Below, piece by piece: positions 15,556 to 51,978 of a stretch of DNA of 64,000 nucleotides. Both the position numbers and the translations under genes were made by a program. Numbering within the stretch: position 1 is the first letter of the stretch; each line of letters begins with the position of its first letter. The stretch covers positions 1 through 64,000 of the IMG/VR virus record IMGVR_UViG_3300027759_000070. One strand, given 5' to 3'. The stretch comes from a virus. A model generated the notes under the pieces. That model did not search any database and was not told where the DNA came from. It was given only the letters and a program-made list of their open reading frames with translations.

Positions 15556-15562
15556 TTTAAAC

Positions 15563-15591: not shown

Positions 15592-15597
15592 GGTGGG

Positions 15598-16625: not shown

Positions 16626-17334
16626 TAAAATAAAAAATGAAGATTTTGAAAAAATATTATCAATTTTAAAACGATGCGATAAAAATCAAATAGAGATTCT
16701 ATCTAAACATTTAGATTTAAAACCATTTTCGCATCCATTAGAAAAACTAATAAATGTAAAAGCAGAAATTCTTTTAGATTCATTATTAAGATCTTCATAT
16801 ATAACTTTAAATGGTATAAGAGGTATTATAGCAGAATCTACGTTCAATGATATTTTAGTCAAAAATTCTAAAAGGTGGAAAGATATACCAGCAGGTGCTC
16901 AGAATCCTTACGATTTTATACTAGAAGATAATGCAGGTCAAGTTCGAATACAAATAAAACTCCAAAGAAAAGTAGAAAATTTACCTTGGATACGAAAAGA
17001 TGGATGTGCTGTAGTTGAAACAGAAAGAACTAGATCGGGCAAAACAAAAGATGGGGAAAGTTCCAGACCATATCGATACGGAGAATTTGATTTATTGGGA
17101 GTTTGTATGGAACCATCTCATGGTGTATGGGAATCGTTTTTGTTTATACCACAAAAATATTTAGATCCTCATAAAGATGATATCAGATATCTAAACAAAC
17201 TACAATCTGTTCCGTTAAGTCCTAAAAATAATTGGACTGATAATTTGGATGAAGCTGTAGAATTATTTCGAAAAGATCCATCCAAAATTTTTATTGCCCC
17301 AAATAGACCAAAACAATTCGAATTTGCGTTCTAA
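16615..17334 (+). CDS. Restriction-endonuclease-like PD-(D/E)XK protein
   Basis: RGIIAE...PYDFILED...RIQIKLQR...YRYGEFDLLGVC. Confidence 0.6.
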   Translation: MAFNKIKNEDFEKILSILKRCDKNQIEILSKHLDLKPFSHPLEKLINVKAEILLDSLLRSSYITLNGIRGIIAESTFNDILVKNSKRWKDIPAGAQNPYDFILEDNAGQVRIQIKLQRKVENLPWIRKDGCAVVETERTRSGKTKDGESSRPYRYGEFDLLGVCMEPSHGVWESFLFIPQKYLDPHKDDIRYLNKLQSVPLSPKNNWTDNLDEAVELFRKDPSKIFIAPNRPKQFEFAF

Positions 17335-18401: not shown

Positions 18402-18419
18402 ATTTATATTTATCAGTAA

Positions 18420-19646: not shown

Positions 19647-19647
19647 A

Positions 19648-20232
19648 TTATGTTAAAAATTTAGTTTGCATATTTGCTTTTTCAAGAAATTTGGTATTTC
19701 TATTTACAAAGTTATCTATCGTACCATTTGCTTTAAATGCTTCTTTCGAGACTTCGTTTGCAATTCTTCCGACATGTTTATCAACCTCCATAGTAATTTT
19801 GTTTGTTATTTTATTCATTGCTGACTGAGCTAAACAATTTGTCATCTGAGCAGCAAAGGATGCACAACTTTGCCTACTCTGAAAGTATATGTTTAAGTTT
19901 GTAGACTTTTCTGTTAAACCTTGTATTTCTACTAATATGCCTGTTAATTCATTTATAATGGATGTTATTTTCATCAATGGAGATAACACCGATCCAATAA
20001 TTTGATTGACTCTTGCATTGATTATACCAGTAACAGATGCAGTAATGGAAGCCATTAACCCAGCGGCCATACCAGCAATTTGTTGAAGTAACGCCGCAGG
20101 ATTCATTGCAAATCCAAATATTGTATCTTTTAAACACAATAAGCCGTTAGATGCTGACATTATCCCGTCAACTGTTTTATTAACTGAACTTAGAATTTTA
20201 GAACTGCCTGATACATTAAGTGAAAATCCCAT
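19648..20232 (-). CDS. Hypothetical late (probably structural) protein
   Basis: Start reset to ATG 20232 (TATAAATA-N5-ATG); helical; coupled to gp5. Confidence 0.65.
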   Translation of the reverse strand: MGFSLNVSGSSKILSSVNKTVDGIMSASNGLLCLKDTIFGFAMNPAALLQQIAGMAAGLMASITASVTGIINARVNQIIGSVLSPLMKITSIINELTGILVEIQGLTEKSTNLNIYFQSRQSCASFAAQMTNCLAQSAMNKITNKITMEVDKHVGRIANEVSKEAFKANGTIDNFVNRNTKFLEKANMQTKFLT

Positions 20233-24686: not shown

Positions 24687-24788
24687 AATTTGTATTTTTC
24701 TTTCTTTTGTTTTTTCGACCTCAAGCACTAACTCAGTGCAGGAACTCAAGTAATATCTACTTCTACCAAATTTTTATAAGTAAATATA

Positions 24789-39226: not shown

Positions 39227-39604
39227 TTAATTATGTTGGTTTTTCAGAAAGTCAACATATTGTTTAATTTCTCTTTCTGATAATTCAAAATTTTTTGCTA
39301 AAATTTTAGTATCAGCATTTTCTTGAATTTTTTCTTCTTTGTTTTTCTTTAAATAACTAATTCTTTTTTTCTTTACTTTTGGTAAAATATTTAATAAGAA
39401 TTCGTACTGTTCCTGTTTCGTGGAAAACGTCTTTCCATAGACATTTGTCGTTTGATTAAGTATCTCAGAAATGTCGGGAGAATACATGCTACACCAGCGA
39501 GCAACCATATAATAATTGAACTGTGTTTCTCCTTCATTTATCGTATTTAGTTTCTTCTTATTGAATAAGACAGAATCTATGAAATTAAATATTGTATCTT
39601 CCAT
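39227..39604 (-). CDS. Clamp loader small subunit-like (gp62-like)
   Basis: FNYYMVARWCSM...QYEFLLNILPK...LAKNFELSEREIKQY. Confidence 0.65.
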   Translation of the reverse strand: MEDTIFNFIDSVLFNKKKLNTINEGETQFNYYMVARWCSMYSPDISEILNQTTNVYGKTFSTKQEQYEFLLNILPKVKKKRISYLKKNKEEKIQENADTKILAKNFELSEREIKQYVDFLKNQHN

Positions 39605-40596
39605 TATTTTTCTAACTGTTCTTTAATCCACCAGTATACACTACTCAATCCCTTTTGTAAAGGGTAATTTGGCTTCCAGTTTAACTTCTTGAAAATCAAC
39701 TCATTGTCGGAATTTCTGCCGCGAACACCAAGGGGTCCACTGATATGCTTTTTAACTAAATTTTTACTTTCCATCGAAGCCGCAATATCAACAAGTTGAT
39801 TTATGGTAACCATCTCGTCCGAACCGATATTTACTGGACCAGTAAAATCAGATTCCATTAGTCTTCTTACTCCTTCAATACATTCGTCAATATACAGAAA
39901 TGATCTGGTCTGTTTCCCATCACCCCATATTTCGATTTCTCCTCCATCTTTTGCCATTAATACTTTTCTGCAAATAGCTGCTGGTGCCTTTTCTTTTCCA
40001 CCGTTCCAAGTTCCCATAGGACCAAAAATATTATGGAAGCGAGCAATACGGACATTCATTCCAAAATTTCTTGCATATGCCAAATAAAGTCTTTCGCTGA
40101 AAAGCTTTTCCCATCCATATTCACTATCTGGTGCAGCAGGATATGCAGACTCTTCTGAGCACTTTGGATTATTCGGATCTTCTTGGTTGTATGCTGGGTA
40201 CATACAGGCACTGCTCGAATAGAACACTTTCTTTACATTAAATTGTTTACAGAGTTCAGCGATGTTCAAATTAATTTGAGCCGAATTATGCATCAAAACA
40301 GCATCATTATCACCACTAAAGATGTATCCAGCCCCACCCATGTCTGCTGCTAATTGATATACTTCATCAAATGCGTTTTCTTTTTCATCCAAACTGTGTT
40401 GACCGGGTGCCATCATTAGCAATGAACATTTATTATAATCCGTTAAATCCGCAATCACAAAGTCATCCGCAGATGTTTTCGAATATTCTGGATACTTTAA
40501 ATCCGCAGCACGAACCCAATATCCTTCAGACTTTAAACGATTGACCAAATGATTTCCGATAAATCCCCCTGCTCCTAGTACTAATGCTTTTTTCAT
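39604..40596 (-). CDS. NAD-dependent epimerase, GDP-mannose 3,5-epimerase-like
   Basis: GAGGFIG, LAADMGGAG, SSACMYP, YGWEK, EKAPAAICRK, GVRGRNSDN. Confidence 0.9.
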   Translation of the reverse strand: MKKALVLGAGGFIGNHLVNRLKSEGYWVRAADLKYPEYSKTSADDFVIADLTDYNKCSLLMMAPGQHSLDEKENAFDEVYQLAADMGGAGYIFSGDNDAVLMHNSAQINLNIAELCKQFNVKKVFYSSSACMYPAYNQEDPNNPKCSEESAYPAAPDSEYGWEKLFSERLYLAYARNFGMNVRIARFHNIFGPMGTWNGGKEKAPAAICRKVLMAKDGGEIEIWGDGKQTRSFLYIDECIEGVRRLMESDFTGPVNIGSDEMVTINQLVDIAASMESKNLVKKHISGPLGVRGRNSDNELIFKKLNWKPNYPLQKGLSSVYWWIKEQLEK

Positions 40597-40598
40597 AT

Positions 40599-41309
40599 TT
40601 AAATATTTTTTATAAAAATTCTATTGTGTCCAACACATGATAATTCTTCGTAATTCTTGTCAGTTTCCATATGATCCTTTATGGCATCACAAACCTCTTT
40701 ATGTCCCCTAAATATAGGCAATCCACCAAGATCCTTATAACATGATGCATCATCAAACACTATAACTCCTTTGTTTTTTGTTATTTCTTTAGCTAAAGCT
40801 ATATCAGAAACTACCGTATCATAATCATGACCACCATCTACATAAATTAGATCAATAGGCCCAATTTTCTTAATTTCATCTTTTATAGAATTATCCGTAG
40901 AAAATCCTCGTATTATTTGTTTATCTAAATCAAATGGCAAAGAAAACTTATCAAATAATCCTTTAACTAATTTAGGATAATCAACTTTATCATATGTTGA
41001 ATATTTGTCTCCTGCATCAGATAATGGAGAAACCCCGTATATTGACGCATTTTTATTGTATTTTTTATTTAAAAATGTTATTAGATTCAATATCTGTCCT
41101 TTAAAAACTCCTATTTCTAGAAATGTAAATACGGAAGGCATTTCTTTTACTAATTCTCTCCACATTACATAATGTGCATCATCAACAAACCCATAAGAAT
41201 TCTGTTTAACATACTCTCTTATTAATTTTAATTTATCGTCACTCCTATATTCGGAATTACACAAATTATACAAATCTACTTCGTTTTTATTTTTAAAAAA
41301 TTCAAACAT
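40599..41309 (-). CDS. Class I SAM-dependent methyltransferase
   Basis: FLEIGVFKG, LIYVDGGHDY, IVFDD. Confidence 0.8.
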   Translation of the reverse strand: MFEFFKNKNEVDLYNLCNSEYRSDDKLKLIREYVKQNSYGFVDDAHYVMWRELVKEMPSVFTFLEIGVFKGQILNLITFLNKKYNKNASIYGVSPLSDAGDKYSTYDKVDYPKLVKGLFDKFSLPFDLDKQIIRGFSTDNSIKDEIKKIGPIDLIYVDGGHDYDTVVSDIALAKEITKNKGVIVFDDASCYKDLGGLPIFRGHKEVCDAIKDHMETDKNYEELSCVGHNRIFIKNI

Positions 41310-41313
41310 AATA

Positions 41314-41907
41314 CTAGTCAATACAATTTTTAATGATTTCTGTATACTCTGCGTCTTTTGTGATTAACTTTTCGTATCGTTCTTTTGAAATATATTTTGG
41401 ATTTATCCACCAATCTTCAAATGGATTTCCAGACAGATGTACATTATCTCCTACCAAAACATATCCTAAACTACTTAAAAATTCTCTTTGAGGAATTTTT
41501 TCTGAAAGTTCGTATCCTCTGTAAGAATCATGTTCTATAGTCAAAACTTTAAATTCCCTACCAGAAGAAAATACGTTTTTTAACGTCCGCACTCTCGTAT
41601 TATCTCCTTCCAAATCAATAGTCAAATAATCAATTACAGCAGGAAAACCATTATCATCAAATAATTTTTTATAGTCTATATTTAGAGCATCATTACAAAC
41701 AAATTTAGTCTTTCTCTTTTGCCATTCTTTTGACAAATCGGTTATATCTAAAGATAATCCATCCCATCCTTCGTTTTCTAATTTTAATGTGTTGTTTATA
41801 TTGTCTGGAACCCAGCATCCAATATCTACAAAAAACTTTTTATCATCAGTTTTTACCAAATACGAAACAAATATATCTTGACCAGCTTGTGAAAAACTAT
41901 CACTCAT
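41314..41907 (-). CDS. FkbM-like methyltransferase
   Basis: SQAGQD, FVDIG, NNT, IDYLTIDLE, FEDWW. Confidence 0.8.
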   Translation of the reverse strand: MSDSFSQAGQDIFVSYLVKTDDKKFFVDIGCWVPDNINNTLKLENEGWDGLSLDITDLSKEWQKRKTKFVCNDALNIDYKKLFDDNGFPAVIDYLTIDLEGDNTRVRTLKNVFSSGREFKVLTIEHDSYRGYELSEKIPQREFLSSLGYVLVGDNVHLSGNPFEDWWINPKYISKERYEKLITKDAEYTEIIKNCID

Positions 41908-41913
41908 ATCAAT

Positions 41914-42675
41914 TTACTTAATTAGATATTTTGCATTTTCAATACAAATTTGTTTATTATCATAATGATGAGTTACACAATTATAAGTTTGAACCACTTT
42001 GTAATTGTGTTTAAAAAATATCCAATTATTTGCAGTTTGTTCACAACAATGCCAAATTTTAGAATTTACGTCAGTAACATCAGAAATATCAACATTCACC
42101 ATAGAATCACAAACAGATCTTAATTCTAATTCTGGATAATCATGTGGTATTCCAAGAACACCTAAATTATAAATTGGTATATCTGTTCTTCCAATAGTAT
42201 TTTGTGCTACCTTTATTTCACCCATCAAAGGATTTCCTTCCTGTATTCTTCTTTCGTATTTCCATACAAAAACTTCATTAGGATTTGGTTCTGGTAAAGC
42301 ATCATGAAATATCAAATCATTATCAATCTTTACAGTAAATTCTGTACTACTTTTTGCATAATAAATAAAATCGGTTAATACATCAAAACAATATTTTAAT
42401 CCATTGGTATACTTTTTAAACATTGGAATAATGTCATGATATCTTACTCGATCTTGATCAATGTTGTATTTAAACATTTTTTCTTTCAGATACTCTATAT
42501 CATCTGTGTATATGTCTAAAATTCTTTTTGGGTTTTTATCCACAAATGTAGCATAAGATGCGGCAGAATATTCAAATATATAGTTCTTATTCCCATATAC
42601 ATCCTTTGCCCAAGATCTTCCAATCTCTGCTAATTTGTTTATGTCGTAATTATAAGTTAATGCAATTGTTTTCAT
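41914..42675 (-). CDS. Putative glycosyltransferase (GT-A-like)
   Basis: IYTD, KIDND (DxD), YNLGVLG, CEQ. Confidence 0.5.
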   Translation of the reverse strand: MKTIALTYNYDINKLAEIGRSWAKDVYGNKNYIFEYSAASYATFVDKNPKRILDIYTDDIEYLKEKMFKYNIDQDRVRYHDIIPMFKKYTNGLKYCFDVLTDFIYYAKSSTEFTVKIDNDLIFHDALPEPNPNEVFVWKYERRIQEGNPLMGEIKVAQNTIGRTDIPIYNLGVLGIPHDYPELELRSVCDSMVNVDISDVTDVNSKIWHCCEQTANNWIFFKHNYKVVQTYNCVTHHYDNKQICIENAKYLIK

Positions 42676-42676
42676 T

Positions 42677-43291
42677 TTATTTTTTAATGTAAAATCCGTC
42701 TCCCCAAGATACCCCAGCCCAATCTTGTTCTACTAATTCAAATCCATATGCTCCCAAAAAATTATTTAATTCATTTACAGATGGAGCATCTTTATAAACC
42801 ATTTCTTTGTGTTCTGTGTTTCTGTTTATTTCACACATAATATAATCGATATGATTTAAAGTTTTTTCAGAACCTTTCAAAACTTCCAACTCATATCCTT
42901 GGACATCAATGTTTAAAAAATTATAAAATGTGTAATTAAAATCATCTAATCGTTTCATTTCGACAATTTCTTTATTACTAAATCTTGTAGTACCCCAATC
43001 TAAATTAAAATTGGGTTCCAATATAGACGAACATCCACAAGCATCAACATCCTCTATAAACATTTCTATAGATTTTGTTTCATTTCCTAATGCACAATTA
43101 TGCAAAATAGCATCAGATATTTTACTTCTTAAAACGTCAAAAGTTTTTTTAACTGGTTCAAAATAAACAAGATTTGATACATTTAAATTTTTGTATAATT
43201 CATGTTCTCCTCCATGATGGGCACCAATATGAATTATTCCATTTATTTTTAAGTTATATTTCTGATTAATCTGTGCTAAATCCAATATCAT
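42677..43291 (-). CDS. FkbM family methyltransferase
   Basis: IIHIGAH, FEP, SSILEP, LNIDVQGYELEVLKG, WGDGFY. Confidence 0.88.
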   Translation of the reverse strand: MILDLAQINQKYNLKINGIIHIGAHHGGEHELYKNLNVSNLVYFEPVKKTFDVLRSKISDAILHNCALGNETKSIEMFIEDVDACGCSSILEPNFNLDWGTTRFSNKEIVEMKRLDDFNYTFYNFLNIDVQGYELEVLKGSEKTLNHIDYIMCEINRNTEHKEMVYKDAPSVNELNNFLGAYGFELVEQDWAGVSWGDGFYIKK

Positions 43292-43986
43292 ATTGTACCT
43301 CTAATATCTTTATTAATCCCGTATTCCTGTAGTAATGGATTTAATTCGTCTGGATATTCTGATGTATTCCATTTACCTTTGACCAAAGCTGTTGCTATAT
43401 ACGGATAAACGTCCGAATCATAATGATTCTGTCCTCTTTTTGATTCGTTGTCATAATGATATAGTCCTTTTAAATTTAGCTCTATGCATTTTTGTACATA
43501 AGTTTCGTTCTCAAACCATTTCGAAGCCTTTACCTCTTTATATAGTTTTATAAAATCTGATGTTCTCCATATAGTAGGTTGCATCGAAAATATGTTTTGA
43601 TTATCAGACTCAATCTCATACAAAGTATTTGAAAGCTGAATCTTATTCAAAGCTCCAGACTTTATCAACCTGATAAATGAATATTCTGGATTTTCTTTTA
43701 AAAATTCTTTATACTCATTCAACTTATCTTCGTTTACCTTATTATACAAAACAAAATCTTCTTGTAGATATATAAAAAATTCTGGGTTTATGTCTTCTAA
43801 AGTTTGAACCCATGTTTGCCAATAAGGTTGAGAATTTTTGTAAATATAAATGTTTTTATATTTTTTATCATTATGGGGAACATCAGATAATAGATATAAT
43901 CGGTATGAACAAAATTTTTTGTTTTGTTCATAAAACATATCCCATACATCAGACGTATTACTATTGGTATAACATACTTGTATCAT
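43288..43986 (-). CDS. Putative glycosyltransferase
   Basis: YLQEDF, FSMQPTIW, TALVKGKW; start reset to ATGA overlap. Confidence 0.55.
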   Translation of the reverse strand: MIQVCYTNSNTSDVWDMFYEQNKKFCSYRLYLLSDVPHNDKKYKNIYIYKNSQPYWQTWVQTLEDINPEFFIYLQEDFVLYNKVNEDKLNEYKEFLKENPEYSFIRLIKSGALNKIQLSNTLYEIESDNQNIFSMQPTIWRTSDFIKLYKEVKASKWFENETYVQKCIELNLKGLYHYDNESKRGQNHYDSDVYPYIATALVKGKWNTSEYPDELNPLLQEYGINKDIRGTI

Positions 43987-44402
43987 AAATAATCTACACA
44001 AACTCCGTAACAGTTGTAATTTTTACTTTTCCAATCTTTATCAAAATCTACTATAATTGATCTATCAACAACATCTTTATTAGGATATGTCCATATATAT
44101 CCAGATGATGTTAATGTACAATCATCTTCTTGATGCCAAAAACAATTTTTAATGTTATATTTCAACATGTAATGCAATGCATCTAAATTCTTTGCGTGGC
44201 ACCACAACCCATACTTTTGAAGGAATTCGTGATTAACAATATATGTTGGTTTGTCATGTCCCAAAATAATAAGTCCATCTTGAAACCAAACATCAATTTC
44301 TACTTCAATGTTTTTATCAAGCAATGAACTGATGTGATTTGGGTTATTTTCTAAATATTCGTTAGTACCACTAACATTTCCTCTATGAGATATTATCAAC
44401 AT
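43983..44402 (-). CDS. GDPD/PLC-like phosphodiesterase fold protein
   Basis: IISHRGN, VEIDVW, LGHD, LWCHAKN, FWHQED, WTYP. Confidence 0.7.
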   Translation of the reverse strand: MLIISHRGNVSGTNEYLENNPNHISSLLDKNIEVEIDVWFQDGLIILGHDKPTYIVNHEFLQKYGLWCHAKNLDALHYMLKYNIKNCFWHQEDDCTLTSSGYIWTYPNKDVVDRSIIVDFDKDWKSKNYNCYGVCVDYL

Positions 44403-45030
44403 AATCTTTATTGACTGCTAATATGTCTCCTTCTCCATATGGATGGGGGCATGGAATGAATTCAACTTTAAAATTATTTTGTGTTAAAAATTCTTCCAGA
44501 TCTGTTTTTAATATATGACCCTCATAATAAGGAGAAACCGATGCTTCACAATGGATGAATTTTACATTTTTTAGGAAATCCCCCATACCTTTCAAAGCCA
44601 AAAGCTCGACACCCTGCGTATCCATCCACAATACATCAACAGATTCTATATTGTTTTCTATTAACCATTCATCTAATCTTACACAATCTACTGATATCTT
44701 TTTACAGTCTTGTGTACTGGCAAAAGGAACATCTATTGGTTTTAATAATGATGAGGCACCGATATTTCCTAAAGTCAAATAAAAATCTAATTGTCCCTTT
44801 ACGTCACCTACAGCAAATTGATACACATAAACATTTGGACATGTTTTTGATTTTTTTTCACATATATCAAACTGACTTGGATTCGGCTCAAATGCATGTA
44901 TGGTCGAAGTTGGAAAAGTTTTAGAGAATTCTATGCTTTGATCTAAATCCCTAGATCCAACATCCAATATTATTTTTGGATTTATTCCCCCATGAGAATT
45001 TATAAATGATATGAAGTTATCTATTAGCAT
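44383..45030 (-). CDS. FkbM family methyltransferase
   Basis: ILDVGS, AFEPNP, SSLLKP, WMDTQGVEL. Confidence 0.88.
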   Translation of the reverse strand: MLIDNFISFINSHGGINPKIILDVGSRDLDQSIEFSKTFPTSTIHAFEPNPSQFDICEKKSKTCPNVYVYQFAVGDVKGQLDFYLTLGNIGASSLLKPIDVPFASTQDCKKISVDCVRLDEWLIENNIESVDVLWMDTQGVELLALKGMGDFLKNVKFIHCEASVSPYYEGHILKTDLEEFLTQNNFKVEFIPCPHPYGEGDILAVNKDYVDNIS

Positions 45031-46214
45031 TTAATTACACCCCATTTTTCTATAGCTTGATGATATTCATCACCATACTCTTTATCTATGCTCTGTCTCA
45101 TAGATTTTGCTCCAGCTAATGTTCCATTTGGATGTCCATGAATACCACCACCAACATTAGCCATATAATCAACACCTAATCGGCTATTAACCATTTCTGT
45201 CAGCCCAGCATTGAATCCACAGCTTATAGCTGGCATTACATTTAATTCCGTAAGAATCTTACAAGAATCAATTACTTCCTGTTCGTCCCACTTATAATAC
45301 CCTCCAATCATACCAGCATGTATGAAATCCACGCCACTTAATCCTGCAATCTTACAAATTACTCTCCAATCAATATGGAATGCATGGGATTTGTTTGTAA
45401 AAATTTTGTCTCCACTTTTTTGGAAGTGAATGAAAATCGGCAAGTCCAATTCTCTAATTGATCTGTACACACCTAACCCACACCAAAAATTAACATGAAC
45501 AGAATTCCCCCCTAAAGAATGTACTAGTTTTACTCTTTCCAAAATCTTGTCTGGGTCACAATGAATTGATACCGAATAAATTACATTCTTATCTTTTAAA
45601 TAATCCATTATCAAAGGGACACGTTCTTCAAGAGGACACAAGTCAAACTCAGACATAATTTCGTCCTCCTTAATAAAGTTGACACCACCATCAACTAATT
45701 CTTTCACCATTTCTAATAAAACTTGGGGTGTTACACCAATTTTAGGTTTAACTATTGCTCCTAATACTGGTTTATCGTATGAATTTACAAACTTCCTAAT
45801 TCCAGATATTCCATACTTTGGCCCTTTGAATTCAGATAAAATAGAATCAGGAAATTCTATGTCTAATACATGACATTGGTCAACTACATCAATATCCAGT
45901 TGCCCACCCATTAAATTTACTAGCAAATGAGATATTCCGTTGTTTTTAAAGTTGATGTTTACGGTTGGGAACGCAATATCGACAATACCTTCAACTCTAG
46001 ATTCTAGATTTTTTTTATCATCCAAAATGATACAAGAATATTTTTCAAACAATTCTTCGGTTTCCCATTTGTTTCGTACTTTAGGATTTCCTACAGACTG
46101 TCCAATCGCCAATGCCCATGCGGCATCATTTAAATTTGTTGTTGACTTTATGTAGTACTTAACAATCAAATAATCATCTTTGTTTATATCTTCTAATTTT
46201 TTATAGATGTTCAT
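45024..46214 (-). CDS. RuBisCO-like protein (form IV-like)
   Basis: IVKPKIG, GGVNFIKEDE, DFIHAG, PAISCG, GGGIHGHPNGTLAGA. Confidence 0.9.
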   Translation of the reverse strand: MNIYKKLEDINKDDYLIVKYYIKSTTNLNDAAWALAIGQSVGNPKVRNKWETEELFEKYSCIILDDKKNLESRVEGIVDIAFPTVNINFKNNGISHLLVNLMGGQLDIDVVDQCHVLDIEFPDSILSEFKGPKYGISGIRKFVNSYDKPVLGAIVKPKIGVTPQVLLEMVKELVDGGVNFIKEDEIMSEFDLCPLEERVPLIMDYLKDKNVIYSVSIHCDPDKILERVKLVHSLGGNSVHVNFWCGLGVYRSIRELDLPIFIHFQKSGDKIFTNKSHAFHIDWRVICKIAGLSGVDFIHAGMIGGYYKWDEQEVIDSCKILTELNVMPAISCGFNAGLTEMVNSRLGVDYMANVGGGIHGHPNGTLAGAKSMRQSIDKEYGDEYHQAIEKWGVIKC

Positions 46215-46250
46215 TGAACTTATTTAAAATTTAATTTAGTAAAATCAAGA

Positions 46251-46571
46251 TTAAATTAAAATTTTATCCCCAACAACACTAGGAGTTTTAACTACACACA
46301 AATAACAGTCTTCTAGGAAGACTGGATCAGCTATTTCATTTGGAAAAATCACAAATACATCCCCAGAATTTAATTCTTGACCTTGTATAGTCATTTTTCC
46401 AGAGATTAAAAAATTAATTTCTGTTAATTTTTCGTGATAATGTGCTTCCCAAAATTCTCCTTTTTTATGAACTTTATACCCTACTTCAAAATCTTGGGTT
46501 TTGTAACAACTAGGTTCAAAATTTCCCACAAACCATCCACCCTTATAATCTTCGATTTTTGTTATTTTCAT
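46251..46571 (-). CDS. Cupin domain protein
   Basis: KGGWFVGNFEP, HYH...EIN, GDVF, VVKTPS. Confidence 0.8.
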   Translation of the reverse strand: MKITKIEDYKGGWFVGNFEPSCYKTQDFEVGYKVHKKGEFWEAHYHEKLTEINFLISGKMTIQGQELNSGDVFVIFPNEIADPVFLEDCYLCVVKTPSVVGDKILI

Positions 46572-47326
46572 AAAATAAACTTACACTTTTCTAATAAATT
46601 CTTTTTATATAAATGGTATTTATATATGTAATGATGATTTAAAATACATAAGATATTACCAATTACTAGATTAGTAGATCTTTCATTTATTGGTTTTAAT
46701 ATCTCATTACTAAATTCGTTATGTGTATTTGATATAGGCCAACCTTCAACAAAAAGTTTTTTAAAATAATCACTATCATCCATCAAGTATTCAAAAAGAT
46801 CATCATATAATTCACAAATAAGTTTTATATTTTCATAAGAAGAATAAAACCAATGTTCAGTCATACCAGAATTTAATTGATTCCATGTCTTACAGTATAC
46901 TAAATTTGTGTCAATATTTTCTTCAAAATTTAAAACACAAAGATGATCCTGTGGAGCATTATATATTCCGTGCCAATTGAATACATCAAACCTACAAATT
47001 ATTACACAATCATATTTGTCTTGTATAAAATCAAAACATTGTTTTCTAGAATAAGTGTAACTAAACAGTTTATATAATGATGTTCCTCCAGATTCTAGTT
47101 TTTCTGGATTAAACATTTTTATTTCTTCGCTGAAATCTTTTTGTACTTCAAATTTATGATTTACTGGTTTATACTTTTTTAGTATATCATTTATTATTTC
47201 AGTATTAGTCTCCCATGCGTGTATGTACACATCCACATCATATTTTGATAATATATGATCGTTTAATATCTCAAATGATCTAGAATAATCATTGGTCAGA
47301 CCACATATACATAACGCAATTTTCAT
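46568..47326 (-). CDS. Hypothetical glycan-pathway protein
   Basis: MKIALCICG, DVYIHAW, YDCVIICRFD pattern typical of glycan clusters. Confidence 0.55.
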   Translation of the reverse strand: MKIALCICGLTNDYSRSFEILNDHILSKYDVDVYIHAWETNTEIINDILKKYKPVNHKFEVQKDFSEEIKMFNPEKLESGGTSLYKLFSYTYSRKQCFDFIQDKYDCVIICRFDVFNWHGIYNAPQDHLCVLNFEENIDTNLVYCKTWNQLNSGMTEHWFYSSYENIKLICELYDDLFEYLMDDSDYFKKLFVEGWPISNTHNEFSNEILKPINERSTNLVIGNILCILNHHYIYKYHLYKKNLLEKCKFIL

Positions 47327-48049
47327 TTATAACAAAATGTATTTATTTAAATCTTCGGGGGTTCCTATAGGGAAATGCAAATTAAAATAATAGGGATGAA
47401 TTTTTTTATTATTTTTAATCAAATAATTATAAGTAGGTGCTACATAAAATTCATTATTATATCTTTCATTATTTTCTATCATAATTTTTGCAGAATCTAC
47501 GAAAAGTGATCCGTGTTTCCAAAAGTGGAACCCATTAGTAGCTATGTTGCTTATAACAACTTTTTCTTTAACATCGACTATTTCAAAGTTATCATTTAGT
47601 TTGACATAACTATTTTTATTTGAAACTGAATTAAACACACCTAAAATTCCATCACTATTATTGCGATTGGAATATTTTATGATCGTATTTATATTTAAAT
47701 CTTCTGTTATTTGATCACAGTTTGTTATTACCAAAGGAGTTTCATTATCAATTAAGTGCTGAGATAACAAGCAAGTACAAGCAGATCCTTCTGTTAGATA
47801 ATCTATTGATATAATTTCAAAATTTACATTCAATCTTTTGCATATGCTTTGTAAATTATGAATTGGTAATTCCTTTCTAGTTATAAAAATAAACCTAGTA
47901 TTTTTGAGTTGATTATTATTCTCTATAACACGTTCTATCATTGGCTTCCCATTTACATCTATAAATGGTTTAAATTCATTTGGATGTGTTTTTTGGAACC
48001 TTGATCCTAAACCAGCCATAGGTATCAATATGTTTAAATTTTCATTCAT
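47327..48049 (-). CDS. Sugar-phosphate nucleotidyltransferase-like protein
   Basis: ILIPMAGLGSRF, KPFIDV, TEGSAC, NCDQ, EFYVAP, GTPEDL. Confidence 0.85.
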   Translation of the reverse strand: MNENLNILIPMAGLGSRFQKTHPNEFKPFIDVNGKPMIERVIENNNQLKNTRFIFITRKELPIHNLQSICKRLNVNFEIISIDYLTEGSACTCLLSQHLIDNETPLVITNCDQITEDLNINTIIKYSNRNNSDGILGVFNSVSNKNSYVKLNDNFEIVDVKEKVVISNIATNGFHFWKHGSLFVDSAKIMIENNERYNNEFYVAPTYNYLIKNNKKIHPYYFNLHFPIGTPEDLNKYILL

Positions 48050-48645
48050 AATTTATAGCAATCGTGTTTTTTATATTCGCTTATTCTTGTGTTGTATTTT
48101 ATCCAATGTAGATCATTGTTGTCGTTTAAATCATTTAATATAAAATTAACAGGAACACCATCTAAGTAATTATAAAATCTTCTAGTTAAAATTTGTTCCA
48201 CAAAATCAGTAGTTCTTACATCATCAATTTCCCATAATTTTATTAGATCTTCCGTTTTGGCAGACATAAAATAATCAATAAAATATTTTCCTGATTGTGG
48301 GCTACCCACATGTTGTCCTATAAAATTAAATTTATGAAAATCTATTATCTTCATAAATTCATTAAAATTAGTAGGAATCAAGTCGTTTCTTAATTTTAAA
48401 ATATATTCGTATCCCTTTTCTTTGCAAAGATATAATCCATTTAAGCTACATACTTTTTGATAGTAAAAAAGATGAGGACCAGCTTCTATTGGAGGTTCAT
48501 TAAACAAAACAATATCATTACTGTGGTATTTCTGCTCATCACCTTTCCATGTAGAAAAAATTAAATTAAACCCAGAAAATGCTTTTTTAATTTCTGGAAT
48601 ATTTGTGCTTTTTCCTGTAATTAAAATTACAAAATTAAAATTCAC
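48046..48645 (-). CDS. WavE-like glycan biosynthesis protein
   Basis: IFSTW, YQKVCSLNGL, LKLRND; start reset to GTG 48645. Confidence 0.55.
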   Translation of the reverse strand: MNFNFVILITGKSTNIPEIKKAFSGFNLIFSTWKGDEQKYHSNDIVLFNEPPIEAGPHLFYYQKVCSLNGLYLCKEKGYEYILKLRNDLIPTNFNEFMKIIDFHKFNFIGQHVGSPQSGKYFIDYFMSAKTEDLIKLWEIDDVRTTDFVEQILTRRFYNYLDGVPVNFILNDLNDNNDLHWIKYNTRISEYKKHDCYKL

Positions 48646-49372
48646 AATTTTTATTATAATATAGTTGATTTTCGAACATGTAAGACCTAGTCTTACTTCC
48701 TTTGGTATACTCATCCAAAGCAGATCCAATATCAATGTATCTTCCAACTTTTTGAGTATCTAATCCTGATAAGAAATCGATAATAACTTCACTCATCGGA
48801 CCAGCAGATATCAAATATAATTCAGGTCTTAATGCAATTTTAGACAATTCATTCAAGAATTCATTCTTTTTGTCTTCCCAAAAATTTACACAATCATCAT
48901 TAACAGGTATAAAATCTAAAACATCAAATGGATATTTTCTATTAGATCCTTCTTTGTTTGCTATCAAAATAACCTTTTCATCTATATTTTGAATTACATT
49001 TTTAAATTTTTTGTAATTTCCGTTAATCCATAAATTCGAATATGTTATGTTTTCCATATCAACTCCAGCAATTTTTAAATTATCTAGAATGATTTTTTTC
49101 CCATAAGGATCACAACATCCACAAGAAATTCCATAAAATTTATCTGGGCTTTTGTTTTTTAAACTATTTGCGAGATCTTTTCCTAATTTAGTTTTGTGTG
49201 ATGGAGCATTCCACTTGTCCTTTTGGAACGCTTGTGTGTGGTTTCCCACTTCTTTACCCATCATTAAGGCCAATTCACCATCGGCGTATCTAGAAAATAT
49301 CGTGTGTTGTTTTTTTACGAAAATTCTATCAATCAAGTATTCGAAATCTTTACTAAAATCTTGTGTCATCAT
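48635..49372 (-). CDS. GT-D-fold-like glycosyltransferase
   Basis: FSRYADGE, LISAGPMS, YIDIGSALD. Confidence 0.6.
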   Translation of the reverse strand: MMTQDFSKDFEYLIDRIFVKKQHTIFSRYADGELALMMGKEVGNHTQAFQKDKWNAPSHKTKLGKDLANSLKNKSPDKFYGISCGCCDPYGKKIILDNLKIAGVDMENITYSNLWINGNYKKFKNVIQNIDEKVILIANKEGSNRKYPFDVLDFIPVNDDCVNFWEDKKNEFLNELSKIALRPELYLISAGPMSEVIIDFLSGLDTQKVGRYIDIGSALDEYTKGSKTRSYMFENQLYYNKNCEF

Positions 49373-50367
49373 ATATTCTTTAATAGTTTTGCTATCTTTT
49401 TTGCTGAATTTCCGTCACCAAAAGGGCATGGATAACTTATTTGATAATCTTTACTTATTTTTGAAACCAAAGAACTCAAATTTTTTGGAGACATACAAAG
49501 GATTCCATGATAATGGAGACATTCTGCTCTTTCTGTGGTTTCTCTACAGATGATAATTTTCTTATTTAAGAAAGATGCTTCTTCTTGAATGCCACCACTA
49601 TCAGTAATAACAAATCTACAATCTTTTAAAATATCAATCAAATCCGAATGATTCAAAGAATCAACAACTTTTACATGCTTGAAAATGTTTTTGTGTTTAA
49701 TCACATTTGGATTTGGATGTATGGGAAGTATAAATTCCAAATCATTATATTGTTCTGCTAATTTATCTATTTCTGTAAACCATTCCTCTATAATGTCGTG
49801 GTTTTCTCTCCTGTGAAGAGTTACCAAAACTTTGTTTCCATACGAAGGAACTACATGAGTAATATTATCTAGTACAGTATTACCAACTACATATACATGA
49901 TTATAGTTTGTTATTTTTTCTGCCTCCAGACAAGCCGCATTATCATTAGTTGCACACAAATGAATGTCGGCAATTCTACTAATTAATTGCCGATTTGCTT
50001 CTTCTGGATATGGATGATTTAGATCATATGTTCTCAACCCAGCTTCCAAATGAATGATCTTTATTTTGTTATTAAAAGCCCACAATGCCACCGCAAAAGC
50101 TGAAGATGTATCTCCTTGGACTAATACATGAGTGAAGCATTCTATGGGTATAGAACAAGTTAATACATTTGCAATAACAGAATTTAATCTATTATCACTT
50201 AATTGCTTTTGTTCTATACTGTAATCGACCTTTATATCTTTTAGAAGATCCGTATGTTGTCCAGTAAAGAATAAAGAATACTCAATATTATTACTATTAA
50301 ATTCTTGGAGCAATGGCTTTATCTTCAGCCATTCTGGTCTTGTTCCAAATGATACTAATACATTCAT
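49369..50367 (-). CDS. wecB: UDP-N-acetylglucosamine 2-epimerase
   Basis: GTRPE, TGQH, VQGDT, HLEAGLRT, PEEANR, TLHRREN, TDSGGIQEE, PFGDG. Confidence 0.95.
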   Translation of the reverse strand: MNVLVSFGTRPEWLKIKPLLQEFNSNNIEYSLFFTGQHTDLLKDIKVDYSIEQKQLSDNRLNSVIANVLTCSIPIECFTHVLVQGDTSSAFAVALWAFNNKIKIIHLEAGLRTYDLNHPYPEEANRQLISRIADIHLCATNDNAACLEAEKITNYNHVYVVGNTVLDNITHVVPSYGNKVLVTLHRRENHDIIEEWFTEIDKLAEQYNDLEFILPIHPNPNVIKHKNIFKHVKVVDSLNHSDLIDILKDCRFVITDSGGIQEEASFLNKKIIICRETTERAECLHYHGILCMSPKNLSSLVSKISKDYQISYPCPFGDGNSAKKIAKLLKNI

Positions 50368-51095
50368 TAACCTCTTAGTAATTTAAATCCTTTATTTTTA
50401 TATTCGGTTAAAGCAATCCCAAACATATTTAAATGATCTGGCTTTTGAGAAATTGCATTATTATCCGCTCCAAACTGCCATCCATAACTAGGAATACTCC
50501 CCCACATTTCCATATCTTCTTTTGGATGTGGTGGTACTAATGTTCTTGTATTCAAATACTTCTGAATTGAATAGGAAAAATGTGTATCTTCTCCACAAAG
50601 TAAAGAATTCGGAACAGTTGCTTCCTGCCAAAAAGCTGTGATAAACTTTCTAGGGAAAAACCAAGAATGCCCCACAATATCAACTTGTGTGGTTTCTGAA
50701 TTGGCCGAGTGCCACCCAACATCTTCTGCTATGCTATAGTTATAATCATTAAATATAACCCCTCTCGTACCATAAAGTGCTTCTTCATTTTTCATTTCAT
50801 TCATACAATTCTCAAACCACTTTTTACCCGGTATTGTGTCATCATCAAATACACATATATAATCACCTGTTGTATTTAACACATGAGAAAATCTAGACCA
50901 AACTCCAAAATTGTAATTTGATATAACGGTTCTATACTTATTAAAGATTGATTTGTCAAACTTATCAAATTTATCGGATGCGTTTACCCACAACATTATT
51001 TCGTGTGGTTTTATTGTTTGATTCTCGATTGCTTCTATTTGAAGTTTTAAACTTTCATAACGTCTAAAACAATTAATTATAACGCTTATTTTCAT
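50367..51095 (-). CDS. Glycosyltransferase family 2-like
   Basis: ISVII, VFDDD, GED. Confidence 0.75.
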   Translation of the reverse strand: MKISVIINCFRRYESLKLQIEAIENQTIKPHEIMLWVNASDKFDKFDKSIFNKYRTVISNYNFGVWSRFSHVLNTTGDYICVFDDDTIPGKKWFENCMNEMKNEEALYGTRGVIFNDYNYSIAEDVGWHSANSETTQVDIVGHSWFFPRKFITAFWQEATVPNSLLCGEDTHFSYSIQKYLNTRTLVPPHPKEDMEMWGSIPSYGWQFGADNNAISQKPDHLNMFGIALTEYKNKGFKLLRG

Positions 51096-51096
51096 A

Positions 51097-51978
51097 TTAA
51101 ATTTTATGATACAACTCTTTAACTTTTTTTGCTACATTTGATGCATGAAATTTATCCAAATCATCAGGGGGATTATGTAATTTTTTGTTTAAAATATCGC
51201 CTTTGCTGTTAACATCGTAAATCCATCCAGACTTACCACACAACCATCCTTCAATAGTGGTTCTTCCTAAAAGGATTCCAGCAGTCTCATCACATCTTTG
51301 GACATATTTTTGTACATCGTCTACTGCATTAGAGTGTTTAACATGTTTATGTTTTAATAATTCTCCCAAATAATTATCTGAATTATTTCCCACCAACCAA
51401 AAATCTTTGTTTATACTCTTAGTATATTCGACTAAATCAAATATTGTATTCTTTCTTAAATAATCTATAGTCCCAACAAATAGCACAGCATTGTGATCCT
51501 TTGTTTCTATTTTTTTAAATCTGGTTTCATCGATTGGATTGTATATAATTTCAATAGAAGATGAAGAAATTTTAAAATTATTGATTAAATGATCTTTTAT
51601 TTCTGGTCTTATTGCGATATATTTTTTAATAGATTCGTGAATAACAGGATCTTCTAAAGATATGACTTCTGAGTGAATCGTACAGATCTTTTTTGTTTTT
51701 GGGTATACCTTAATTAATTCTTGTACTACGGGTTTATGCTGACAATGTATTATATCATACTGATCTGTCCCCCTGATGCTAGAAAATTCTTGAACCTTTA
51801 TACCACACTTTAATGCCAAATCTGTCAATTTACCACCAATATAAGGGGATACTACAGTTACATCACAATTTAACTGTAGTAAATTTCTCGCCAATTCATA
51901 CACATACATCTCAGATCCTGTAAAATCCTTAAAAAGTAGACACCCAATAAGTACTTTGGTTTTTTTCTCTTCGGTCAT
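51097..51978 (-). CDS. GT-B (GT4-like) glycosyltransferase
   Basis: TGSEMYVYELA, IIYNPID, GRTTIEG. Confidence 0.7.
   Translation of the reverse strand: MTEEKKTKVLIGCLLFKDFTGSEMYVYELARNLLQLNCDVTVVSPYIGGKLTDLALKCGIKVQEFSSIRGTDQYDIIHCQHKPVVQELIKVYPKTKKICTIHSEVISLEDPVIHESIKKYIAIRPEIKDHLINNFKISSSSIEIIYNPIDETRFKKIETKDHNAVLFVGTIDYLRKNTIFDLVEYTKSINKDFWLVGNNSDNYLGELLKHKHVKHSNAVDDVQKYVQRCDETAGILLGRTTIEGWLCGKSGWIYDVNSKGDILNKKLHNPPDDLDKFHASNVAKKVKELYHKI

What the first reader, a model, noticed from the sequence alone, without database searches (positions are those of the whole stretch)
43983..48049. Phage RuBisCO-like protein embedded with cupin, nucleotidyltransferase and GDPD-like genes
Seen: the RLP keeps KPK and the carbamylation/Mg motif (KEDE), but HFQK replaces HRA and HAGMIGGY lacks the loop-6 Lys at the expected position. 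It has its own TAAATA-N6-ATG. Established: form IV RLPs catalyse enolisation, isomerisation or transcarboxylation on sugar-phosphate-like substrates, mostly in salvage or catabolism. Inference: here an RLP acts biosynthetically, making an activated branched sugar or small acid substituent for a glycan. That would be a new role for the fold.
Basis: partly seen in the sequence, partly recalled or inferred. Interest (0 to 1): 0.75.

Follow-up and report, generated by a model that had tools for sequence, protein, structure and literature searches.

The report
Phage RuBisCO-like sugar-activation gene cassette
A freshwater T4-like phage carries an intact RuBisCO relative that cannot fix CO2 and is locked to, and elsewhere fused with, a sugar-activating enzyme, so it probably helps build an unusual activated sugar, a job never tested for this enzyme family.

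Summary
Window 43983-48049 (minus strand) encodes a nucleotidyltransferase, a DUF7796-like protein, a 106-aa cupin, a 396-aa RuBisCO-like protein (RLP), an FkbM methyltransferase and a 139-aa miniature GDPD. They sit in a 12.4-kb glycan island of a T4-like phage.

The RLP keeps the Mg/carbamate core but has lost eight other RuBisCO active-site residues. It belongs to a separate clade, apart from MtnW, OiaX-like and form III proteins. That clade is already in print as phage 'Form IV-like' RLPs of unknown function (Jaffe et al. 2019).

New here is the context:
- The nucleotidyltransferase lies near the RLP in 86 of 89 loci, the mini-GDPD in 71 and the cupin in 59.
- RLP-nucleotidyltransferase and nucleotidyltransferase-cupin fusions exist.
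- In 80 cupin-anchored loci, RLP and HAD phosphatase domains largely exclude each other: 53 RLP only, 16 HAD only, 8 both, 3 neither.

Best reading: the RLP supplies or reshapes the phospho-sugar that the nucleotidyltransferase activates for a glycan. The product is unknown.

This scan has reported the same cassette on other DNA. Those notes are not independent evidence.

The parts
47327..48049 (-). 240-aa sugar-phosphate nucleotidyltransferase (NTP_transferase family), first gene of the conserved core
   Evidence: Pfam PF00483 1.8e-8, 34.7 bits against a 21.2 cut-off. phrog_3980 4.6e-54. Best solved relative is 4evw, 4.7e-11. Found in 86 of 89 RLP loci. Fused to the RLP in P0121, 38% identity, 2e-45.
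46568..47326 (-). 252-aa DUF7796-like protein of unknown function, a variable insert between the nucleotidyltransferase and the cupin
   Evidence: No Pfam hit. phrog_13607 8.9e-11. Atlas neighbours are viral clusters, one of which carries DUF7796 in 17% of members. A relative is fused to the mini-GDPD in L015. Hits 9 of 89 loci.
46251..46571 (-). 106-aa single-domain cupin with the motif H44-x-H46...E51
   Evidence: Alignment A2: H44 and E51 invariant, H46 in at least 90% of sequences. Model pLDDT 96.7. Foldseek best hits are Thermococcus cupin phosphomannose isomerases 7zvm and 7zvy. VIA-align ties NDP-sugar 3,4-ketoisomerases (Z 11.0-11.6, 102 aligned) with those isomerases (Z 10.8-10.9, 83 aligned). 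Fused to the nucleotidyltransferase in L078, 8e-31.
46215..46250 (-). The island's only intergenic gap, holding a TAAATA box 6 nt before the RLP start codon
   Evidence: Promoter function is inferred from the T4 late-promoter consensus (recalled) and was not tested.
45024..46214 (-). 396-aa RuBisCO-like protein of the phage 'Form IV-like' clade
   Evidence: Pfam PF00016 2.8e-36. Below every NCBIfam cut-off. Residue signature. Clade of 35 rows with support 99. 185 IMG/VR stretches.
44383..45030 (-). 215-aa FkbM-family SAM methyltransferase; overlaps the RLP stop by 7 nt and the mini-GDPD start by 20 nt
   Evidence: Pfam PF05050 3.5e-19. TIGR01444 2.8e-23. In other loci a methyltransferase of varying family holds this slot.
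43983..44402 (-). 139-aa miniature glycerophosphodiester-phosphodiesterase-like barrel
   Evidence: Invariant residues H6 R7 E18 N19 E35 D37 H49 H69 K71. The profile hits GDPD 7e0v at 1.1e-4. Model pLDDT 95.6. In the exhaustive structure search the top 22 rows are GDPD/PLD-type enzymes or GDPD-like domains, Z 7.2-9.7, with 127-136 of 139 residues aligned. Found in 71 of 89 loci.
39604..51978 (-). Surrounding glycan island: SDR epimerase/dehydratase, several methyltransferases, UDP-GlcNAc 2-epimerase, GT2, GT4 and a WavE-like protein

Best explanation
The RLP is a catalytically active, non-carboxylating member of the RuBisCO superfamily. It works as one enzyme of a small cassette with a nucleotidyltransferase and a cupin, usually joined by a methyltransferase and a miniature GDPD. 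The cassette makes a nucleotide-activated modified sugar or sugar-phosphate unit for glycan synthesis in the infected cell.

The most likely order is as follows. The RLP uses its retained Mg2+/carbamylated-lysine centre to enolise and rearrange a phosphorylated keto-sugar. That substrate may carry a second anionic group, because a basic residue at position 295 and H327 are kept. The RLP hands the product to the nucleotidyltransferase, which couples it to an NMP. The cupin does an isomerisation, and the methyltransferase decorates the unit. In this scheme the RLP fills the slot that a HAD phosphatase or mutase domain fills in RLP-less versions of the cassette.

Shown here: gene linkage, fusions, residue conservation and the complementary distribution of RLP and HAD. 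Inferred: the order of steps, the substrate, the product and the glycan target.
For: Linkage:
- NTP-transferase in 86, mini-GDPD in 71 and cupin in 59 of 89 RLP-anchored loci.
- After dereplication at 75% RLP identity: 33, 21 and 26 of 35 clusters.
- The usual gene order is NTP-cupin-RLP-(methyltransferase)-GDPD on one strand.
- The link persists at 35-39% RLP identity (L088, L089). It is also seen in a closed Verrucomicrobiae chromosome (L087) and a Planctomycetales contig (L086), the latter with a GDPD-like gene at hhalign probability 93%.

Fusions:
- P0121 = RLP + NTP_transferase.
- L078 = NTP + cupin.
- Other partners of this nucleotidyltransferase family act on sugar phosphates: HAD_2 (S-CAM9, L011, L013) and DHBP synthase (S-SKS1).

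Complementarity: in 80 cupin-anchored loci, 53 have RLP only, 16 HAD only, 8 both and 3 neither (Fisher 1.8e-8, not corrected for relatedness).

Methyltransf_24 goes with the RLP: 28 of 61 RLP loci against 0 of 19 without it.

Catalytic core: K175, K177, K201, D203 and E204 equivalents are invariant or nearly so across 57 clade members.

Neighbourhood: among 140 nearest non-core neighbours, the most frequent Pfam families are methyltransferases, SDR epimerase/dehydratases and GT2. The window island has GT2, GT4 and UDP-GlcNAc 2-epimerase.
Against: - No product, substrate or activity is known for any member of this clade.
- The gene order NTP-cupin-RLP, and the cupin's full-length structural likeness to NDP-sugar 3,4-ketoisomerases, fit equally well a scheme in which the RLP acts after nucleotide activation.
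- 8 of 80 cupin-anchored loci have both RLP and HAD.
- The Fisher tests ignore the shared ancestry of the loci.
- The loci were chosen by similarity to the RLP or the cupin and capped at 80 per scan.
- Many 'bacterial' hits are MAG contigs that look phage-like (L088 and L089 carry PhoH-like genes and many small ORFs).
- The role of the mini-GDPD is unexplained. It is absent near the RLP in 14 of 35 dereplicated clusters and in L087.
- Transcription is not shown: only two 151-nt contigs of an RNA library lie on 43996-44519, and these could be DNA carry-over.
Confidence: 0.6

Rival explanations
1. The RLP acts at the nucleotide-sugar level. The nucleotidyltransferase first activates a common host sugar-1-phosphate. 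The cupin then works as an FdtA/QdtA-type ketoisomerase, and the RLP enolises the resulting NDP-keto-sugar. The NDP diphosphate would occupy the P1 site, and the nucleotide would sit in the pocket opened by E60G, W66P and N123G.
For: - Gene order NTP-cupin-RLP in most loci.
- The top five VIA-align rows are NDP-sugar 3,4-ketoisomerases (four named, one a 'dTDP sugar isomerase'), aligned over 102 of 106 residues at Z 10.9-11.6; those enzymes use an H-x-H pair (mutant titles), and the cupin has H44-x-H46.
- NTP-cupin fusions exist.
- SDR dehydratase-like genes are common nearby: 7 of 140 neighbours, and f3 in 30 of 89 loci. The window has one at 39604-40596.
- The N-terminal-domain active-site residues are replaced by small residues.
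Against: - No RuBisCO-family enzyme is known to take a nucleotide-linked substrate (recalled).
- The minimal chromosomal locus L087 has no dehydratase next to RLP-NTP-cupin.
- The other fusion partners of this nucleotidyltransferase (HAD_2, DHBP synthase) act on free sugar phosphates.
- The RLP/HAD exclusion points to a pre-activation slot.
- The cupin keeps the H-x-H...E triad that this report reads as metal-binding (recalled), and it ties with cupin phosphomannose isomerases.
Confidence: 0.2
2. The cassette is a variant of the MTA-isoprenoid shunt pair. As in Rhodospirillum and Rhodopseudomonas, an RLP isomerises a 5-substituted ribulose-1-phosphate and the adjacent cupin removes the substituent. 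This would give a 1-deoxy-ketose phosphate, which the nucleotidyltransferase then activates.
For: - A DeepYkr RLP next to a cupin methylsulfurylase is an established pair that makes 1-deoxyxylulose-5-P (passages of PMC5893883).
- The orthologous nucleotidyltransferase of S-SKS1 is fused to DHBP synthase. Its product is also a 1-deoxy-ketose phosphate (recalled chemistry).
- The nucleotidyltransferase has weak IspD-type similarity (E 0.003).
Against: - The RLP is not in the MtnW-related part of the tree; the split has support 99.
- No mtnA, mtnP or other methionine-salvage homologue appeared among the top 25 Pfam families of 140 neighbours.
- The cupin could not be compared with the methylsulfurylase itself.
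- R295 (as K or R) and H327 are kept here, but are lost in the MtnW-type and MtnW-related rows of my alignment.
Confidence: 0.08
3. The cassette makes a sugar donor for phage DNA hypermodification rather than for a glycan on protein, lipid or polysaccharide.
For: T4-type phages are known to glycosylate their DNA (recalled). The island lacks recognisable flippase, polymerase or ABC-exporter genes among the Pfam hits.
Against: - No thymidylate-synthase/dCMP-hydroxymethylase family match in the 87-kb record, which is about 41% complete.
- The cassette also occurs in bacterial chromosomal contexts next to ArnT/PMT-type lipid-linked glycosyltransferases.
- Neighbours are typical polysaccharide enzymes: GT2, GT4, FkbM, WavE-like.
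Confidence: 0.05
4. The gene is a carbon-fixation or pentose-bisphosphate auxiliary metabolic gene, that is, a working RuBisCO. This is how rbcL-type annotations in viromes are often read.
For: Sources name homologues 'ribulose-bisphosphate carboxylase large chain'. The best NCBIfam scores are to the form III model, and the best PDB hits include form III enzymes.
Against: - Eight RuBisCO active-site residues are replaced: E60G, T65N, W66P, N123G, H294Q, H298D, K334Y and G380C.
- 189 bits against a 497 cut-off for form III.
- No e2b2, deoA or PRK among the top 25 Pfam families of the neighbours.
- The true form III-like proteins form a separate clade.
Confidence: 0.02

Closest known systems
'Form IV-like' RuBisCO-related proteins of phages and Beckwithbacteria (Jaffe, Castelle, Dupont & Banfield, Mol Biol Evol 2019; PMC6389311, passages read)
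   Same: Phage-borne, some on myovirus contigs. Highly divergent key residues. Branches outside the other RLPs. Groups with Beckwithbacteria sequences; my tree puts L085, a Beckwithbacteria MAG contig, inside the clade.
   Different: Nothing differs in the protein: this RLP is a new member of that clade. In the passages I read, the paper leaves the function 'unclear'. Its main text holds no occurrence of 'nucleotidyl' or 'glycosyl'. Its supplements were not available to me.
DeepYkr RLP plus cupin methylsulfurylase of the MTA-isoprenoid shunt (Rhodospirillum rubrum, Rhodopseudomonas palustris; PMC5893883, passages)
   Same: An RLP gene next to a small cupin gene. The RLP acts as an isomerase on a ketose phosphate, and the product enters a pathway whose next activating enzyme in the cell is a cytidylyltransferase (IspD, recalled).
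   Different: A different RLP clade. No methionine-salvage genes nearby. Here the pair is locked and fused to a nucleotidyltransferase and lies in glycan islands.
Bifunctional type II phosphomannose isomerase / GDP-mannose pyrophosphorylase (AlgA/XanB type; recalled, not tested)
   Same: A nucleotidyltransferase domain joined to a cupin isomerase domain, as in the L078-type fusions. In RLP-less cassettes a HAD_2 domain supplies the step in between.
   Different: The cupin here has 106 residues. No GMP/PMI NCBIfam model appeared among the nucleotidyltransferase's 22 hits. An RLP, not a phosphomutase, sits beside the pair.
3-oxo-isoapionate-4-phosphate decarboxylase OiaX and related NonPhoto RLPs
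   Same: RLPs that act on phosphorylated keto-acid sugars and keep R295, H327 and K334-type residues for a second anionic group (P0197 row).
   Different: Those enzymes are catabolic. The window RLP scores 142 bits against a 700 cut-off, lies in another clade, and has Q at position 294 and Y at position 334.
Glycerophosphodiester phosphodiesterases (GDPD; for example 1vd6, 1o1z, 7e0v)
   Same: The mini-GDPD shares H-R, E-x-D and H-D catalytic positions and the strand order of the barrel.
   Different: 139 residues instead of about 220-250, with most helices missing. His stands in an H-x-K motif (H69, K71) that I judged by eye, without an alignment covering it, to replace the third metal ligand of an E-x-K motif (motif recalled). 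No Pfam GDPD hit at E <= 0.01.

Membership tests
RuBisCO large-chain superfamily (Pfam PF00016/PF02788) | Significant match to the catalytic-domain and N-terminal-domain models | tested here: met
   PF00016: 125.7 bits against a 30.1 cut-off. PF02788: 20.9 bits against 20.7.
Bona fide RuBisCO (forms I-III) | Full set of catalytic and substrate-binding residues (E60, T65, W66, N123, K175, K177, K201, D203, E204, H294, R295, H298, H327, K334, S379, G380, G381, G403, G404; list recalled) | tested here: not met
   G, N, P, G at positions 60, 65, 66 and 123. Q at 294, D at 298, Y at 334, C at 380 (alignment to 8dht).
Bona fide RuBisCO (forms I-III) | Score above the NCBIfam cut-off of a carboxylase model | tested here: not met
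   rubisco_III 189 against 497. PRK04208 178 against 438. PRK13475 103 against 489.
MtnW/YkrW 2,3-diketo-5-methylthiopentyl-1-phosphate enolase | Score above the model cut-off and placement in the MtnW clade | tested here: not met
   157 against 409 and 130 against 514. The MtnW representative P0206 lies on the other side of a branch with support 99.
OiaX / NonPhoto RLP | Score above the model cut-off and placement in that clade | tested here: not met
   142 against 700. The OiaX-like P0197 lies in a separate clade.
Phage 'Form IV-like' RLP clade (Jaffe et al. 2019) | Encoded on phage (myovirus-type) DNA | tested here: met
   T4-type portal, gp23 and gp15 in the same window. 185 relatives in IMG/VR.
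Phage 'Form IV-like' RLP clade (Jaffe et al. 2019) | Groups with Beckwithbacteria sequences and apart from the other RLPs | tested here: met
   L085 (a Beckwithbacteria MAG contig) lies inside the 35-row clade, support 99. This is a FastTree local support value, and the root is a midpoint.
Phage 'Form IV-like' RLP clade (Jaffe et al. 2019) | Direct identity with the published sequence set | not testable with these tools
Sugar-phosphate nucleotidyltransferase (PF00483) | Match above the Pfam cut-off, with an N-terminal G-x-G-x-R-type loop | tested here: met
   34.7 bits against 21.2. The loop PMAGLGSRF is at residues 10-18. Nucleotide and sugar specificity were not determined.
Glycerophosphodiester phosphodiesterase (GDPD) | Catalytic H-R, E-x-D and H-D positions | tested here: met
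   H6, R7, E35, D37 and H49 are invariant in 48 sequences and align to 7e0v.
Glycerophosphodiester phosphodiesterase (GDPD) | Complete (beta/alpha)8 barrel of about 220-250 residues, and a Pfam GDPD match | tested here: not met
   139 residues. No Pfam family at E <= 0.01. Z 7.2-9.7 to full-size GDPD/PLD-type chains.
NDP-sugar 3,4-ketoisomerase (FdtA/QdtA) | Fold plus a catalytic H-x-H pair | tested here: inconclusive
   Z 11.0-11.6 over 102 residues, tied within 1 Z with cupin phosphomannose isomerases. H44-x-H46 is present. There is no sequence-level match to the family.
MTA-isoprenoid shunt (DeepYkr RLP + cupin) | RLP adjacent to a cupin | tested here: met
   Cupin within 4 genes of the RLP in 26 of 35 dereplicated clusters.
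MTA-isoprenoid shunt (DeepYkr RLP + cupin) | RLP belongs to the DeepYkr clade, and the cupin is a methylsulfurylase orthologue | tested here: inconclusive
   The clade is separate from the MtnW-related rows, but no labelled DeepYkr or methylsulfurylase sequence was available to include.

The most novel reading that the evidence does not exclude
The phage 'Form IV-like' RLPs catalyse a reaction new to the RuBisCO superfamily: an Mg/carbamate-driven rearrangement of a phosphorylated keto-sugar. The RLP-linked Methyltransf_24 may trap the enediolate to give a C- or O-methylated or deoxy unit. This creates the substrate of a dedicated nucleotidyltransferase. The resulting undescribed nucleotide-linked donor is made late in infection, as the TAAATA box before the RLP suggests, to decorate the virion or the envelope of the infected cell. 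Hundreds of aquatic phages and some bacteria would share this pathway.
Probability: 0.25. Interest if true: 0.8.

Novelty: new variant of a known kind. Interest (0 to 1): 0.6.

Why it matters
The RuBisCO fold is among the most studied in enzymology. Every assigned RLP function that I can recall is salvage or catabolism. A biosynthetic, nucleotide-sugar-linked role would add a new kind of chemistry to the superfamily. It would also give a function to a large clade that has been left as 'unclear' since 2019.

There is a practical side too. Several sources label these genes 'ribulose-bisphosphate carboxylase large chain'. The search listing shows virome papers that discuss rbcL among auxiliary metabolic genes; I did not read those papers. 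If members of this clade are counted that way, viral carbon-fixation potential is overstated.

The cassette consists of four or five small, apparently soluble proteins with no Pfam-recognised membrane domain, so the question is directly testable in vitro.

Tried and rejected
**Cultured phage with the RLP.** tblastn against 50,697 phage records found none, and no PHROG matched.

**Genomic context by exact protein look-up.** I used the search for related loci instead.

**Per-member NCBIfam labels for the tree.** The alignment-mode scan returns only tallies. I labelled 10 representatives in a separate call. DeepYkr and Photo clades stayed unlabelled, because NCBIfam returned no model specific to them.

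**L087's 222-aa upstream protein as a divergent mini-GDPD.** Rejected: hhalign probability 0.2%.

**Kinase, 178-aa phosphatase and aldolase of the cultured cyanophage cassettes (Bellamy, SynMITS9220M01, S-SM2) as usual RLP substitutes in IMG/VR.** Among the 80 cupin loci: kinase 1, phosphatase 0, aldolase 0. These were not substitutes at this sensitivity. HAD domains fused to the nucleotidyltransferase were.

**Transcription.** Only two 151-nt contigs of one RNA library lie on the island, at 43996-44146 and 44369-44519. The other bins had no cover. That is no evidence either way.

**A contig joint in DNA run X2 that skips 43711-46816.** Its short side is 21 letters. I treat it as unreliable.

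**Atlas searches.** They returned only unnamed viral or bacterial clusters, with GDPD in 25% of one cluster at score 0.85. These are leads only.

**Literature.** Searches found no paper that links an RLP to a nucleotidyltransferase or to glycan synthesis. Subscription journals and supplements were not searched.

**Marine origin.** I assumed this at first from the cyanophage relatives. It was corrected: both DNA runs that hold the stretch are labelled freshwater metagenome.

Full report
**What is there**

The window belongs to a T4-like phage. It has a T4-type portal (4.9e-99), gp23 (3.2e-89) and gp15, plus ribonucleotide reductase and helicases. The record is an 87-kb viral contig, about 41% complete. 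Its gp23 is only about 32% identical to that of any cultured phage. The two DNA runs that hold the stretch are labelled freshwater metagenome.

Genes 39604-51978 form a tightly packed minus-strand island. It encodes an SDR epimerase/dehydratase, several methyltransferases, UDP-GlcNAc 2-epimerase, GT2, GT4 and a WavE-like protein. The finding's interval holds six of these genes:
- nucleotidyltransferase, 47327-48049;
- a DUF7796-like protein, 46568-47326;
- a 106-aa cupin, 46251-46571;
- the 396-aa RLP, 45024-46214;
- an FkbM methyltransferase, 44383-45030;
- a 139-aa GDPD-like protein, 43983-44402.

Neighbouring genes overlap or abut. The exception is a 36-nt gap before the RLP, which holds TAAATA six bases before the ATG. 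This pattern occurs 8 times in the window against 3.2 expected, and 1 of 100 shuffles reaches 8.

**The RLP**

It matches the RuBisCO catalytic domain (2.8e-36) but falls far below every curated NCBIfam cut-off:
- form III: 189 against 497;
- MtnW: 157 against 409;
- OiaX: 142 against 700.

The alignment to solved RuBisCOs and a 115-sequence alignment give the following in spinach numbering (numbering recalled). K175, K177, K201, D203, E204, H327, S379, G381, G403 and G404 are kept, and R295 is K. Eight residues are changed: E60 to G, T65 to N, W66 to P, N123 to G, H294 to Q, H298 to D, K334 to Y and G380 to C.

Across 57 clade members, the Mg/carbamate core is invariant or nearly so, as are Q265, Y306, S331 and G333; C332 is conserved in at least 90%. 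The Lys two residues after Y306 is not conserved. The enzyme therefore looks catalytic, capable of enolisation, but not of carboxylation.

In a FastTree tree of 128 rows, the window groups with 34 others (support 99). This clade is separate from rows labelled by NCBIfam as MtnW (P0206, above cut-off), OiaX-like (P0197) and form III-like (P0157). The root is a midpoint, and the support values are local.

**Already in print**

Jaffe et al. (Mol Biol Evol 2019) reported about 90 'Form IV-like' RLPs on phage contigs. Some were myoviruses. The proteins clustered with Beckwithbacteria, branched as an outgroup to other RLPs, and were left with function unclear (passages). A Beckwithbacteria contig (L085) falls inside my clade. 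The protein is therefore a new member of a published clade. Their main text holds no occurrence of 'nucleotidyl' or 'glycosyl'. My searches for an RLP linked to a nucleotidyltransferase, cupin or glycosyltransferase found nothing relevant. Supplements were closed.

**How common it is**

- 3140 proteins at E <= 1e-5 among 6510 candidates in the 90% clustered collection.
- 185 of 188 pattern-matched stretches in IMG/VR encode a relative.
- 9 of 102 stretches in GTDB genomes encode a relative.
- 0 of 50,697 deposited phage records match, and no PHROG matches.

**Linkage**

The window's proteins were laid by tblastn on the 89 RLP-anchored loci (E <= 1e-5, at least half the query aligned). The nucleotidyltransferase was found in 86, the mini-GDPD in 71 and the cupin in 59. 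Every other window protein was found in 17 or fewer.

After dereplication to 35 clusters, and within four genes of the RLP, the counts are 33, 21 and 26. The usual order is NTP-cupin-RLP-(methyltransferase)-GDPD on one strand.

The triad persists at 35-39% RLP identity (L088, L089). It also occurs in a closed 2.28-Mb Verrucomicrobiae chromosome (L087), flanked there by unrelated genes. It is also present in a Planctomycetales contig (L086), next to a GDPD-like gene and a PMT_2-type lipid-linked glycosyltransferase.

Among 140 nearest non-core neighbours of the 35 clusters, the commonest Pfam families are:
- Methyltransf_24: 13;
- Methyltransf_23: 9;
- epimerase/dehydratase: 7;
- GT2: 6;
- DUF7796: 4;
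- PMT_2: 2.

**Fusions**

- P0121 (667 aa) is RLP plus NTP_transferase. Its C-terminal half is 38% identical to the window's nucleotidyltransferase.
- L078 (354 aa) is nucleotidyltransferase plus cupin, 43% identical to the window's cupin.
- L015 fuses the mini-GDPD to a DUF7796-like domain.
- The same nucleotidyltransferase family is fused to HAD_2 (S-CAM9, L011, L013), to a C-terminal HAD domain (L024) and to DHBP synthase (S-SKS1).

**Cassettes without the RLP**

Cultured cyanomyophages carry the nucleotidyltransferase (22 records), the mini-GDPD (17 records) and, in Bellamy and SynMITS9220M01, the cupin (3 records). None carries an RLP. They have HAD phosphatases, a kinase or an aldolase instead.

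In the 80 best of at least 520 cupin-bearing viral stretches:
- 61 have the RLP, 77 the nucleotidyltransferase and 63 the mini-GDPD.
- RLP and HAD domains are largely alternative: 53 RLP only, 16 HAD only, 8 both, 3 neither (Fisher 1.8e-8).
- In RLP-less loci the nucleotidyltransferase is typically a 355-368-aa NTP-HAD fusion or a 455-471-aa HAD_2-NTP fusion.
- Methyltransf_24 accompanies the RLP in 28 of 61 loci and is absent from all 19 without it.

These tests ignore the relatedness of the loci.

**The partner proteins**

*Cupin.* The model has pLDDT 96.7, and the motif is H44-x-H46...E51. Foldseek ranks Thermococcus cupin phosphomannose isomerases first. VIA-align ties NDP-sugar 3,4-ketoisomerases (Z 11.0-11.6, 102 residues aligned) with those isomerases (Z 10.8-10.9, 83 residues aligned). 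Its exact reaction is open.

*Mini-GDPD.* The model has pLDDT 95.6. It keeps the H-R, E-x-D and H-D catalytic positions. It aligns over 127-136 of its 139 residues to full-size GDPD/PLD-type chains (Z 7.2-9.7; these fill the top 22 rows of 48,161 chains). It is a stripped-down barrel. Its role in the cassette is unexplained.

**Reading**

Linkage, fusions and the RLP/HAD exclusion place the RLP in one pathway with the nucleotidyltransferase. The most likely position is upstream of it, at the sugar-phosphate level. The retention of a basic residue at 295 and of H327 may matter here. Both are lost in the MtnW-type rows of my alignment. Their retention hints at a substrate with a second anionic group.

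The rival order, in which the RLP acts on an NDP-keto-sugar, is not excluded. The MTA-isoprenoid-shunt precedent of an RLP-cupin pair is a useful chemical analogy, but it is not supported by phylogeny or by the neighbouring genes. Carbon fixation is excluded by the residue pattern.

Expression is untested. Two exact 151-nt contigs in one RNA library are all that was seen.

**Earlier notes of this scan**

After reaching this reading I looked up the scan's notes. The same cassette has been reported on other DNA many times: 119 notes in at least 74 genomes. Follow-up agents drew the same conclusion and cited the same closest known clade. These are AI notes, not independent evidence. Their claims about Legionella, SAR11, DPANN archaea and an actinomycete were not tested here.

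Noticed in passing
P0227 (protein): A 583-aa protein fuses an N-terminal TIR_2 domain (3.3e-13) to a full RuBisCO-like protein. A TIR-RLP fusion suggests a defence or signalling context for another RLP lineage.
   Followed up: no
L092:6067-7494 (Synechococcus phage S-SKS1, SWZG_00042): The orthologous nucleotidyltransferase is fused to a complete DHBP synthase domain (5.4e-65). The record annotates the protein only as DHBP synthase. This suggests a nucleotide-activated four-carbon unit in that phage.
   Followed up: partly
window 8996-10366 (+): A 456-aa protein matches DUF1501 end to end (1.6e-132). This is an unusually strong match to a bacterial family of unknown function inside a phage genome.
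   Followed up: no
window 48046-48747 and 48635-49372 (-): These two ORFs overlap by 113 nt. The downstream one is called from a TTG, so its true start is probably later. One contig of DNA run X1 shows a compensating 1-nt deletion and insertion at 48378 and 48385.
   Followed up: no
window 43711-46816: One contig of DNA run X2 joins 43711 to 46816, skipping the mini-GDPD, methyltransferase, RLP and cupin. Its short side is only 21 letters. It may be a relative that lacks the cassette, or an artefact.
   Followed up: no
window 23124-24749 (-): The major capsid protein gp23 is at most about 33% identical to that of any of 2581 matching cultured phage records. The phage therefore represents a deep, uncultured branch of the T4-like group.
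   Followed up: partly
P0166, P0179 (proteins): These are IF-2B-family (ribose-1,5-bisphosphate isomerase type) domains fused to a RuBisCO with the full catalytic signature. Jaffe et al. already described this isomerase-RuBisCO fusion.
   Followed up: no
L081 (GTDB contig), around 11220-20021: Five paralogous 231-555-aa genes (family f705) surround the RLP in this bacterial MAG contig, and no nucleotidyltransferase lies within four genes. It is one of the few loci that break the linkage.
   Followed up: no
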